From NCBI RefSeq assembly GCF_056746865.1, contig NZ_CM163382.1: a stretch of 64,000 nucleotides of DNA. One strand, given 5' to 3'. This document shows, one piece after another, positions 3,001 to 6,000 of this stretch. Position numbers: made by a program. Positions within the stretch are counted from its first letter, which is position 1; every line of letters starts with the position of its first letter.

Positions 3001-6000
3001 ACCGCCTGGCCGGGTTAAATTTCCCCACTCCACAACGGAATCTTTCAGGAATACGTTCTGGCTCAAAAAAATAATGGAACACTGTTTTAATATGGTTGAC
3101 CAGCAAACCACCACAGCGCAAACTAACGCTAATTTTTTACAGATCAGGTTCACGACTATGTCCAAAAAGATTGCCGTGATTGGCGAATGCATGATTGAGC
3201 TTTCCGAGAAAGGCGCGGACGTTAAGCGCGGTTTCGGCGGCGATACCCTGAACACCTCCGTCTATATCGCCCGTCAGGTCGATCCTGCGGCATTAACCGT
3301 TCATTACGTAACGGCGCTGGGAACGGACAGTTTTAGCCAGCAAATGCTGGACGCCTGGCACGGCGAGAACGTTGATACTTCCCTGACCCAACGGATGGAA
3401 AACCGTCTTCCGGGCCTTTACTACATTGAAACCGACAGCACCGGCGAACGTACGTTCTACTACTGGCGTAACGAAGCCGCCGCCAAATTCTGGCTGGAGA
3501 GCGAGCAGTCTGCGGCGATTTGCGAAGAGCTGGCGAATTTCGATTATCTCTACCTGAGCGGGATTAGCCTGGCGATCTTAAGCCCGACCAGCCGCGAGAA
3601 ACTGCTTTCTTTGTTGCGCGAATGCCGCGCCAACGGCGGAAAAGTAATTTTCGACAATAACTATCGTCCGCGCCTGTGGGCCAGCAAAGAAGAGACACAG
3701 CAGGTGTACCAGCAAATGCTGGAATGCACGGATATCGCCTTCCTGACGCTGGACGACGAAGACGCGCTATGGGGTCAACAGCCGGTGGAAGACGTCATTG
3801 CGCGCACCCATAACGCGGGCGTGAAAGAAGTGGTGGTGAAACGCGGGGCGGATTCTTGCCTGGTGTCCATTGCTGGCGAAGGGTTAGTGGATGTTCCGGC
3901 GGTGAAACTGCCGAAAGAAAAAGTGATCGATACCACCGCAGCTGGCGACTCTTTCAGTGCCGGTTATCTGGCGGTACGTTTGACGGGCGGCAGTGCGGAA
4001 AACGCGGCGAAACGCGGGCACCTGACCGCAAGTACCGTTATTCAGTATCGCGGCGCGATTATCCCGCGTGAGGCAATGCCGGAATAATGGTTTTTGACGG
4101 AGAACGGGTAGATATTCGTTCTCCGTTAATCGCCTTGCAGGGGTGAACCGAACTATGCTGATAATTTGAAGTAAACTGCTGACGCATATCATTCAAACTA
4201 CGCGTAAATTTAAGCGGGTTCTCACCTTTAATTTCGACCGTGACGAAGACATTCCCATTGTTGTTAAAGAAGCCAAAATAATAGTCATGTTGATGACGAC
4301 GATTGGTTTTAAATTGACGAAATGATAAATAGCAGCGGTTATCGTAGGTAATTAAAAAATCATTTTCTCCGTATTCGTTTATCATCTTATTTTTCAGGCT
4401 ACCATCGAAGAGCACTGCATACTTATCTTTGTCAGCAAATAATTCGGCATCAGTTTCTCGGTTGATCGTGTTGACGCTGATACCGAATTCTATTTTTACC
4501 TTGTCTTTATCGATATTATTTCTTGTGCTGACATACATATTATTGGCATCCCAGAGTAAGAGAAAGTTTTTGTTGCAGGAATAAAGACCTGTTAAGCAAA
4601 GAATGACTGTTAGCAAGAATAGTATGCGTTTTTTGTTACGCATTTATACTCCTGAAAATGCGTTGAGGTCGCAAATATAATTAAATAGTCTGACATAAAT
4701 AAAATTAATTCCCTATCAATAATACATCTGCGACTTTTCTTGGTCCTTCGTAGATCTCAAATGCCTCGTACTTAGTCATCCATTGTTCAGGGGCGGTATC
4801 GAAAAGGAACTGAACGCACCCCATTGAAACGATACGTCCATCGGTTACATTAGGTTTTTCCAATTCAAAAACAACGCTCCATGCATTATTTTGCCAGTCA
4901 GTTTTCTCCTCTGGAAACCTGGAGACGGGATAATATCTACCGATAGGAGGTGCGCTCCTTCTGCCACCTTCATTTTCTGTAAGCCAAACAACCTTTACAC
5001 GATACATATGTTTCCATTCATTCATTAATTAAATTAAGTGTGAATTATATAATATTGCCACCCCATGCGATCTTTCCCATTTTAGTCCATCAACTAATAA
5101 TGATAGAAAAGAATACTGGAAGCTTATATTTTTAATCACTTCTATTTTTTCATCATCTAATGACAAGATTACCCACCCCCCGTAATTTTTGCTAACCAGG
5201 TTGTTAATAAATTTAATTATAGGATTGGTTGAAATATCCTTTCCTTTATTCACAGCCATTTCCAGGTCATCGACTAAAGAACCATTGAAGTTGTAAACAT
5301 GATATTCATTAAAGTCTATGTGCTCATCTAAAGGTGGGCCATAAGTAATCGGTAGATTGCATCTCTGCAAAAGATGATGATTACACCAGGCGTATACCGG
5401 AGGGTCGCGATGAAAGGTTTCCCCACCCCAGTGAACCATAACCTCTTGTAGATCTAGTTCCTCTGGAGCGAATCGTGTAGGGAGTAAAATATCCAAGTGA
5501 AAATCCATAGCCTATCCTAAATTTGGCACCCATAACATAAACTGTGTAAGAATCAACGACTGCCCCCCCAAAAATGGGAAAATTTACTTATTATGCAAAG
5601 TTACTTATTAAGAAGCCCATTCCTCATTTTTTGGCAAATAGCCCTTTCGCCAACAGGTCAGAATCTTAAAACTCGCTCGCAAATAAAATTTATTAGCCGA
5701 ATCGTTTTTAACCATTCTGACTAATGTCATCTCACCCGTTCTTTTATCTATCACGAACTCGCCGTAATCAGATCTACAATAGTCAGAAGATGTAGGTCCA
5801 AATTCATATTTTACTACTTTATCAGTTTCTTCAATTTTCAATATTTCTATATGATAGGCCATTATTTAACACCATCTATTGCCTGGCATCGTATACAGCT
5901 AAAACCAGTAGCTAAAATCTCAACATAACTATCATAACCTGCTATAATATAATGTTTTAACTTTAACCGTTTTTTAGGGTCATATAATCTCTCTTTTTCT

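What the first reader, a model, noticed from the sequence alone, without database searches (positions are those of the whole stretch)
4059..4160. Insert gene A has no stop codon of its own and reads through the junction into the kdgK terminator and 3' end
The 194-aa frame continues past the insert boundary for about 24 codons, through the kdgK stem-loop, and terminates at a stop 29 nt inside the convergent kdgK coding region. Either the native 3' end of gene A was truncated by the insertion event, giving a chimeric C-terminus, or the stop was lost.
Basis: seen in the sequence. Interest (0 to 1): 0.5.

Follow-up and report, generated by a model that had tools for sequence, protein, structure and literature searches.

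The report
Gene lost stop, borrows neighbour's tail
A small accessory E. coli gene lost its own stop codon in a rearrangement, so it now reads backwards through the neighbouring kdgK gene's hairpin and last codons and gains a 24-residue makeshift tail; this is an ordinary by-product of island reshuffling.

Summary
The 194-aa ORF (4059..4643, minus strand) has no stop until a TAA 29 nt inside convergent kdgK, after crossing a strong hairpin (4094..4129). RefSeq and UniProt annotate it this way.

Related enterobacterial arrays carry gene A with its own stop two codons past the point where similarity to the window ends. DUF3142-type islands at the same locus carry a different short tail (VISSDPS*). 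About 100 Bacteroidota homologues end in an unrelated conserved motif (YNMIEL). The 24-residue tail occurs only where gene A abuts kdgK, and it is simply the antisense reading of the hairpin and kdgK's last codons. AlphaFold2 gives it low confidence, which suggests disorder. The gene core is under strong purifying selection (dN/dS 0.04-0.18).

Two corrections apply:
- The hairpin is not core E. coli DNA. It occurs only in island carriers (198 of 5426 genomes).
- The hairpin has no U-tract, so it is not a canonical terminator. The stop was therefore lost in a rearrangement inside an old, polymorphic island, not when the island entered the chromosome.

An open frame of 24 codons after stop loss is unremarkable (p about 0.32). 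This is an ordinary stop-loss extension of low interest.

The parts
3159..4087 (+). kdgK (2-dehydro-3-deoxygluconokinase) coding sequence. Its last 29 nt are overlapped antisense by gene A.
   Evidence: The ORF ends at 4087. RefSeq kdgK annotation in matching genomes. The last codon differs here (MPE* against MPA* in K-12).
4059..4643 (-). Gene A, a 194-aa predicted lipoprotein or membrane-anchored beta-sandwich protein. The stop is TAA at 4059..4061.
   Evidence: WP_001244699.1; D3H0X6. The AF2 model has a helix at residues 2-31 and a beta domain at 35-157, with pLDDT below 50 for most of 159-194.
4176..4580 (-). Conserved core of gene A (S22..Q156), under purifying selection.
   Evidence: dN/dS is 0.04-0.18 at dS 0.25-1.5 in 26 of 28 allele pairs. 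The two closest pairs give 0.44 (dS 0.04) and 0.22. The core is 50-60% identical to Bacteroidota homologues.
4134..4175 (-). Fast-diverging linker (F157..K170). Its sequence class co-varies with what lies downstream of gene A.
   Evidence: Window against WL297: core 98% identical, linker 60%. Window against L012: core 85%, linker 95%. This places a crossover near 4173-4176.
4132..4133 (.). Join between the hairpin module (ends ...TTAATCG at 4132) and the gene A module (starts CCTTGCAGG at 4133).
   Evidence: Alignments with SBF22 (L004), L014, L010 and L012.
4062..4133 (-). Junction-derived C-terminal tail, AINGERISTRSPSKTIIPALPHAG (24 codons).
   Evidence: Absent from all homologues outside the kdgK junction. 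Predicted disordered. It is the antisense of the hairpin plus the kdgK 3' end.
4094..4129 (+). Island-specific hairpin immediately downstream of the kdgK stop (perfect 10-bp core at 4097..4126).
   Evidence: Found in 198 of 5426 genomes. Identical in sequence among alleles whose gene A cores differ at dS about 0.8. The WL297 variant keeps the pairing through changes on both arms. No U-tract, and not called as a terminator.
4059..4087 (.). 29-nt convergent overlap of gene A and kdgK. This is the only part of gene A that lies in core chromosomal DNA.
4088..6490 (.). Whole accessory segment, which replaces the 95-bp K-12 kdgK-yhjJ spacer. It is low in GC (about 0.28-0.44).
   Evidence: The full window-type segment is present in 169 of 5426 E. 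coli genomes.
4705..6311 (-). Four further small co-directional genes of the island (106/100 aa, 159 aa, 84 aa, 149/141 aa), with no family match.
   Evidence: for all four. Pfam was run on three of them; the 84-aa protein was not scanned against Pfam.

Best explanation
Gene A is a functional, horizontally acquired gene that sits in an old, highly polymorphic island filling the kdgK-yhjJ spacer in some Escherichia. In fuller versions of the island, gene A ends with its own stop (...C-E-I/F-K-stop), which overlaps the start codon of the next small gene.

In the window's lineage a rearrangement, most simply a deletion of everything between gene A and the island's kdgK-proximal hairpin module, has its end point just after codon K170. 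It removed the last two or so codons and the stop. Translation therefore continues on the antisense of the hairpin and of the last nine kdgK codons until the first in-frame stop, 29 nt inside kdgK. This adds a 24-residue tail.

The tail sequence is dictated by constraints on kdgK and on the hairpin, not by gene A. It follows the folded beta domain, has low AlphaFold2 confidence and is probably tolerated.

Shown: the ORF structure, the join, the own stop in other alleles, the different tails in other contexts, purifying selection on the core, and low model confidence for the tail. Inferred: the direction of the event (deletion rather than insertion), tolerance of the tail, and transcription running antisense into kdgK.
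For: ORF and overlap:
- The 194-aa ORF and its 29-nt overlap with kdgK are, and RefSeq annotates the same CDS.

Alleles with their own stop:
- L005 reads TGT GAG ATT AAA TAA TG, followed by genes of 67, 105 and 81 aa and then kdgK.
- L006 reads TTT AAA TGA TG, followed by five small genes.

DUF3142-type islands (SBF22, XDL, L014, WL297):
- They carry the same or a variant hairpin next to kdgK, but it is separated from gene A by about 3.3 kb (DUF3142 plus a 664-680-aa gene).
- There gene A ends VISSDPS* and overlaps that convergent gene by 23 nt.
- The window sequence equals the L014 left flank (...TTAATCG) joined to the shared gene A flank (CCTTGCAGG...).

The tail and native C-termini:
- The tail is found only in P0001-P0005. 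Every sampled context for them is kdgK-adjacent.
- 92 non-Escherichia homologues have a median of 32 residues after the FxR anchor, and 71 of the 92 carry a YNMIEL-like motif.

Selection and structure:
- Core dN/dS is 0.04-0.18 in 26 of 28 pairs.
- AF2 pLDDT is below 50 for most of residues 159-194.
- The hairpin nucleotides are identical among alleles whose gene A cores differ at dS about 0.8.
- The plus-strand fold (-26.9 kcal/mol) is stronger than the minus-strand fold (-16.7) because of G-U pairs. This indicates that the hairpin is selected in the kdgK-sense transcript.
Against: - The own-stop alleles are the most divergent ones (78% nt identity in the core), so they are not direct ancestors.
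- The kdgK-fused class and the DUF3142-fused class share the same gene A end point (after AAG G). Two independent deletions ending at the same nucleotide would be a coincidence. The order of events is therefore unresolved, including the possibility that DUF3142-hyp was inserted into a fused allele.
- The fused form is old. It is present in E. whittamii at dS 0.84, so the tail has persisted and could have acquired a role.
- No expression data were available.
Confidence: 0.8

Rival explanations
1. The fused arrangement (gene A directly next to the hairpin and kdgK) is the ancestral Escherichia state. The other arrangements arose by insertion of cassettes (DUF3142-hyp, or small-gene arrays) at the 4132/4133 join, and these cassettes brought new stops. 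The tail would then be the original Escherichia C-terminus rather than a later loss.
For: The minimal island in E. whittamii is gene A alone, already fused. The fused and DUF3142 classes share exactly the same gene A end point, which a single site used for insertion would explain. All Escherichia alleles already lack the Bacteroidota YNMIEL end.
Against: No integrase, transposase, target duplication or terminal repeats flank the 3.3-kb segment. In L006 the 664-aa gene is separated from gene A by five other genes, which fits variable deletion within a long array better. In the own-stop alleles the stop overlaps the next gene's start, which is typical of an intact operon. In either case the tail is the antisense of kdgK and the hairpin, and so not native to the gene family.
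Confidence: 0.12
2. The read-through is functional. Translation or transcription of gene A through the hairpin and into kdgK would be a selected device, for example antisense control of kdgK 3'-end formation, or a tail needed for localisation of the protein.
For: The fused junction and the open frame are retained in alleles that have diverged to dS about 0.8. The hairpin is perfectly conserved.
Against: Hairpin conservation is equally strong in DUF3142-type islands, where gene A is 3.3 kb away. The conservation therefore does not depend on gene A. The fold asymmetry favours the kdgK-sense RNA. Amino-acid changes in the tail between alleles (KTIIPAL, KIITLAS, KAITLAS) follow kdgK codon variation. 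The tail has low AF2 confidence. An open run of 24 codons is expected by chance about one time in three.
Confidence: 0.05
3. Gene A is a decaying pseudogene remnant and the long ORF is meaningless.
For: Some genomes carry disrupted copies: IS5 in gene A in LR-58-2, and frameshifted or truncated cluster representatives P0014-P0016. No family or function could be assigned.
Against: There is strong purifying selection on the core, a confident AF2 domain, a good Shine-Dalgarno sequence, and the intact ORF is present in about 169 genomes and across Escherichia species.
Confidence: 0.03

Closest known systems
Stop-loss / C-terminal extension of an ORF after a deletion or rearrangement (chimeric 3' end reading into neighbouring DNA)
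   Same: The native stop is present in related alleles but absent here. Translation continues to the next chance stop. The added residues have no homologues and have low predicted-structure confidence.
   Different: The extension runs antisense through a conserved hairpin and into a convergent housekeeping gene. It has also persisted across Escherichia species, rather than being a recent strain-specific lesion.
Convergently overlapping gene pairs in enterobacteria (3' ends sharing a few to tens of nucleotides)
   Same: There is a 29-nt tail-to-tail overlap of two annotated CDSs. A second example at the same locus is gene A with the 680-aa gene (23 nt) in DUF3142-type islands.
   Different: The overlap here is demonstrably secondary, because it is created by loss of one partner's stop.
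Arrays of orphan immunity-type genes (SUKH/SMI1_KNR4-containing arrays of polymorphic-toxin systems; acquired interbacterial defence islands of Bacteroidales). Comparison from my own knowledge.
   Same: These are co-directional arrays of small, AT-rich, unrelated ORFan genes with very variable content between strains. A related array (L005) has a weak SMI1_KNR4 match and a TriTu-family gene. A Tenacibaculum homologue sits among DUF1963 and SMI1_KNR4 genes.
   Different: No toxin gene, no Rhs/CDI/T6SS element and no integrase is present. None of the five window proteins matches any known immunity family.
Rho-independent terminators and 3' stabilising hairpins downstream of E. coli genes
   Same: A stable GC-rich stem-loop starts 7 nt after the kdgK stop. 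Pairing is conserved through compensatory changes, and unrelated alleles (K-12, L005) have other hairpins at the same place.
   Different: No U-tract follows the stem on either strand; the T-run precedes it.

Membership tests
Stop-loss chimeric C-terminal extension | Close homologues terminate at a stop at or near the point where similarity ends. | tested here: met
   L005 and L006 alleles stop two codons after the shared C-[KE] codons.
Stop-loss chimeric C-terminal extension | The extension has no counterpart in homologues from other genomic contexts. | tested here: met
   Only P0001-P0005 of the 120 fetched homologues contain NGERIS. Their sampled contexts are all kdgK-adjacent.
Stop-loss chimeric C-terminal extension | The extension is encoded by DNA that has an independent identity (a neighbouring gene or element). 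| tested here: met
   The hairpin module occurs next to kdgK without gene A beside it in SBF22, XDL and L014. The last 29 nt are kdgK codons conserved in island-free genomes.
Canonical intrinsic (Rho-independent) terminator | A GC-rich stem-loop. | tested here: met
   Ten perfect pairs, or 16 with G-U pairs; -26.9 kcal/mol, z = -5.1.
Canonical intrinsic (Rho-independent) terminator | A U-tract immediately 3' of the stem. | tested here: not met
   The plus strand continues TAATCGCCTTGC and the minus strand CAAAAACCATT. The scan does not call it.
Bacterial lipoprotein (SPase II substrate) | An N-terminal signal peptide followed by a lipobox [LVI][ASTVI][GAS]C. | tested here: inconclusive
   The sequence is MRNKKRILFLLTVILCLTGLYS-C23, and Y at position -2 is non-canonical. 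UniProt labels D3H0X6 'Lipoprotein'. Bacteroidota homologues have K-L in place of S-C. No dedicated predictor was available.
Polymorphic-toxin immunity gene array | Members belong to recognised immunity families (SUKH, Imm etc.). | tested here: inconclusive
   None of the five window proteins matches. A gene in the related array L005 matches SMI1_KNR4 at i-E 9.5e-4.
Polymorphic-toxin immunity gene array | Linkage to a toxin gene or a toxin-delivery locus. | tested here: not met
   The neighbours are kdgK, yhjJ, dctA and pdeH, and no toxin module is present.
Integron-type gene cassette (attC-bounded) | An attC site with RYYYAAC ... GTTRRRY core sites, and a nearby integrase. | tested here: not met
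   Read directly from the sequence: the hairpin flanks are TTTTTGAC and GTTAATC, which do not fit the core sites. There is no integrase in the locus.

The most novel reading that the evidence does not exclude
The kdgK-yhjJ spacer of Escherichia would be an ancient, balanced 'cassette' hotspot in which small genes of partly Bacteroidota origin, possibly orphan immunity genes, are shuffled at precise gene-boundary joints. This reading rests on two rearrangement classes sharing the same end point after codon K170. The perfectly conserved island hairpin would then be a functional element of this system, either a recombination or boundary element or a 3'-end element for kdgK, and the gene A read-through would be a recurring footprint of that mechanism.
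Probability: 0.1. Interest if true: 0.55.

Novelty: new member of a known kind. Interest (0 to 1): 0.2.

Why it matters
The main value is for annotation and for interpreting the locus.
- The last 24 residues of WP_001244699.1 / D3H0X6 are not part of the protein family and should be ignored in homology or structure work.
- The hairpin after kdgK belongs to the island, not to the core genome.
- The locus is a clean natural example of one gene acquiring three different C-termini according to what a rearrangement placed next to it. It also shows that such a makeshift tail can persist across species.
- It marks kdgK-yhjJ as a deeply polymorphic hotspot carrying a Bacteroidota-type gene family of unknown function.

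Tried and rejected
- Family searches gave nothing usable. All five island proteins were searched against NCBIfam, PADLOC and PHROGs. Pfam was run on gene A and three of the other island proteins, not on the 84-aa one. The results were a Staphopain_pro hit at E 0.09 and phrog_23589 at E 0.0086, which I take as noise.
- Foldseek against PDB gave only weak generic beta-sandwich hits (E at least 0.02, TM at most 0.30). AFDB50 returned only uncharacterised relatives. No function could be assigned to gene A.
- Rfam found nothing credible in 3000..7000.
- The hairpin is not a repeated element in the window.
- I looked for the 21-nt junction segment of DUF3142-type islands in L005 and L006, to test whether it is a remnant of the gene downstream of gene A. 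There is no match within 3 errors, and the 680-aa protein's C-terminus has the same length as in L006, so it is probably native.
- A microhomology model (an ATTAA shared by the native gene A end and the hairpin edge) fits L005 by eye. It cannot be established because L014 shows that the hairpin module already extends to ...TTAATCG.
- Literature searches for kdgK with yhjJ, and for TriTu, returned nothing relevant.
- An integron attC reading of the hairpin was rejected on sequence grounds.

Full report
**Locus.** The window is an Escherichia coli chromosome segment with the order yhjG, pdeH, kdgK (3159..4087, +), a low-GC segment, yhjJ (6491..7987, -), dctA. Megablast against 5426 complete E. 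coli genomes shows that the flanks are universal. The full 4088..6490 segment is present in only 169 genomes. K-12-type genomes instead have an unrelated 95-bp spacer. Similarity to K-12 stops within one or two nucleotides of the kdgK stop on one side and of the yhjJ stop on the other.

**Checking the observation.** The minus-strand ORF 4059..4643 encodes 194 aa.
- It has an AGGAG five nucleotides upstream of its ATG (sequence).
- Its stop (TAA, 4059..4061) lies 29 nt inside kdgK.
- Before the stop it crosses an inverted repeat at 4097..4126 that is unique in the window. As plus-strand RNA the repeat extends to 16 pairs at 4094..4129 (-26.9 kcal/mol, z = -5.1), against -16.7 kcal/mol on the minus strand.
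- RefSeq annotates exactly this CDS (WP_001244699.1). AFDB holds the identical protein from E. coli 042, labelled 'Lipoprotein'.
An open run of 24 codons has a chance probability of about 0.32, so the length of the read-through is not remarkable in itself.

**Where the join is.** Other architectures at the same locus define it.

| Source | Architecture (kdgK side to yhjJ side) | Gene A end |
|---|---|---|
| SBF22, XDL, cryptic-clade contig L014 | kdgK, same hairpin, DUF3142 gene, 680-aa gene, gene A (176 aa), yhjJ | VISSDPS* |
| WL297 | As above, plus the four small genes of the window | VISSDPS* (177 aa) |
| E. whittamii (L010, L011) | kdgK, hairpin, gene A (193 aa), yhjJ | Fused tail |
| L012, L013 | Fused gene A with other small genes | Fused tail |

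- The hairpin module reads ...CGTTCTCCGTTAATCG in L014 and then continues into the DUF3142 upstream region.
- The gene A module reads CCTTGCAGG... in all alleles.
- The window is exactly these two modules abutted at 4132/4133.
- The tail A171..G194 (AINGERISTRSPSKTIIPALPHAG) is therefore the antisense reading of the hairpin module (4088..4132) and of the last nine kdgK codons.

**Is the tail native?** No.
- In two related enterobacterial arrays from Logan assemblies, gene A has its own stop. L005 lies between yhjJ and kdgK, and L006 lies next to the 664-aa gene.
- In L005 the 3' end reads ...TGT GAG ATT AAA TAA TG. In L006 it reads ...TTT AAA TGA TG. In both, the stop overlaps the ATG of the next small gene. 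The stop falls two codons after the last codons shared with the window (C-K/E).
- In DUF3142-type islands gene A also lacks that stop. There it reads VISSDPS* and overlaps the convergent 680-aa gene by 23 nt. That gene's C-terminus has the same length as in L006, so it is probably native.
- Of 120 fetched homologues, only P0001-P0005 contain the tail.
- The 92 non-Escherichia homologues that could be anchored are mostly Flavobacteriia and other Bacteroidota, 50-60% identical in the core. They have a median of 32 residues after the conserved FxR anchor, and 71 of the 92 end in a YNMIEL-like motif that the Escherichia alleles lack.

**Is gene A real, and does the tail matter?**
- Nei-Gojobori dN/dS for the core (S22..Q156) is 0.04-0.18 at dS 0.25-1.5 in 26 of 28 allele pairs. 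The two closest pairs give 0.44 and 0.22. The gene is therefore under purifying selection.
- AlphaFold2, run with 28 homologues, gives an N-terminal helix (residues 2-31), a confident beta domain (35-157), and pLDDT below 50 for most of 159-194.
- The 14 codons between Q156 and K170 diverge far faster than the core and co-vary with the downstream context. Window against WL297 is 98% identical in the core but 60% in the linker. Window against L012 is 85% in the core but 95% in the linker.
- The window allele is thus itself a recombinant, with a crossover near 4173-4176.
- Together these results indicate that the region after about residue 158 is a poorly constrained appendage. The tail is most likely tolerated rather than used (inference).

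**The hairpin.**
- It occurs in 198 of 5426 genomes, while gene A occurs in 200. It is island DNA, not core DNA.
- Its nucleotides are identical among alleles whose gene A cores differ at dS about 0.8.
- WL297 has a variant that keeps CGGAGAA/TTCTCCG but changes both the outer pair (A-U to G-C) and the inner pairs on both arms, preserving a 14-bp stem.
- The plus-strand RNA fold is about 10 kcal/mol stronger than the minus-strand fold, owing to G-U pairs.
- K-12 and L005 have unrelated hairpins at the same position.
- This supports a structure selected in the kdgK-sense transcript. No U-tract follows on either strand, and the consensus scan does not call it. 'Terminator' is therefore plausible only in the loose sense of a 3'-end structure.
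- Conservation of the tail codons NGERISTRSP is explained by this constraint, not by gene A.

**How it arose.**
- The simplest model starts from a long array: kdgK, hairpin, DUF3142 gene, 664/680-aa gene, small genes, gene A, small genes, yhjJ. Internal deletions then reduce it. In the window lineage everything between the hairpin module and codon 170 of gene A is gone.
- One point is left unexplained. The fused class and the DUF3142 class share the same gene A end point, which two independent deletions would not be expected to do.
- An alternative is insertion of the DUF3142 pair at a pre-existing fused join. That segment, however, has no signatures of a mobile element. I leave the direction at roughly 0.8 to 0.12.
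- In either case the tail is junction-derived.

**Function.** No function could be assigned to gene A or to its four neighbours. Three hints point to an array of immunity-type genes:
- a weak SMI1_KNR4 match in L005;
- a TriTu-family gene in L005;
- DUF1963 and SMI1_KNR4 neighbours of a Tenacibaculum homologue.

No toxin is linked, so this remains only a lead.

**Verdict.** This is an ordinary stop-loss C-terminal extension, worth an annotation note, in an interesting but secondary polymorphic hotspot.

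Noticed in passing
window 4094..4129; L004 140..175; L008 1185..1218: The hairpin right after the kdgK stop occurs only in island carriers (198 of 5426 genomes). It is identical in sequence among alleles whose neighbouring gene differs at dS about 0.8. A variant in WL297 preserves the pairing through changes on both arms. It folds about 10 kcal/mol better as plus-strand RNA and has no U-tract.
   Followed up: partly
window 4088..6490; loci L004-L014: The kdgK-yhjJ spacer is a deeply polymorphic hotspot across Escherichia, including E. coli, E. whittamii, E. marmotae and cryptic clades. At least eight architectures were seen, ranging from a 95-bp spacer to arrays of ten small genes.
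   Followed up: partly
window 4176..4580 (gene A core): The gene A family is otherwise almost entirely Bacteroidota (Flavobacteriia, Cytophagia), at 50-60% identity to the E. coli protein. This implies cross-phylum transfer. The Escherichia alleles have S-C where the Bacteroidota proteins have K-L, which creates a possible lipobox cysteine.
   Followed up: partly
L004 3438..3460; L007 4478..4500; L014 5509..5531: In DUF3142-type islands gene A again has no stop of its own and overlaps the convergent 680-aa gene by 23 nt. This is a second, different makeshift tail on the same gene.
   Followed up: yes
L005 2432..2884 and 3264..3560; L016 6200..10036: Related arrays contain a weak SMI1_KNR4 (SUKH-1) match and a TriTu (PF24689) gene. 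A Tenacibaculum homologue sits among DUF1963 and SMI1_KNR4 genes. These hint that the arrays may be orphan immunity genes.
   Followed up: partly
L002 1841..2538; L009 3452..4880: Insertion sequences disrupt island genes in some strains: IS1 within the 159-aa gene in LP-26-E1-261, and IS5 truncating gene A in LR-58-2. Frameshifted or truncated cluster representatives also exist (P0014-P0016).
   Followed up: no
window 4173..4176: The window's gene A is a mosaic. The core is 98% identical to WL297, but the 3' linker and tail are 93-95% identical to L012, which indicates a homologous crossover inside the gene.
   Followed up: yes
window 6385..6490: About 105 nt next to the yhjJ stop are shared by window-type and DUF3142-type islands but not by K-12. 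They contain a second GC-rich hairpin (CCCGGCAGCG...CGCTGCCGGG) followed by a T-rich run on the plus strand.
   Followed up: no
window 4705..5025 and 5862..6311: RefSeq starts two island genes later than the longest ORFs: 100 aa against 106 aa, and 141 aa against the 149-aa GTG-start ORF.
   Followed up: no
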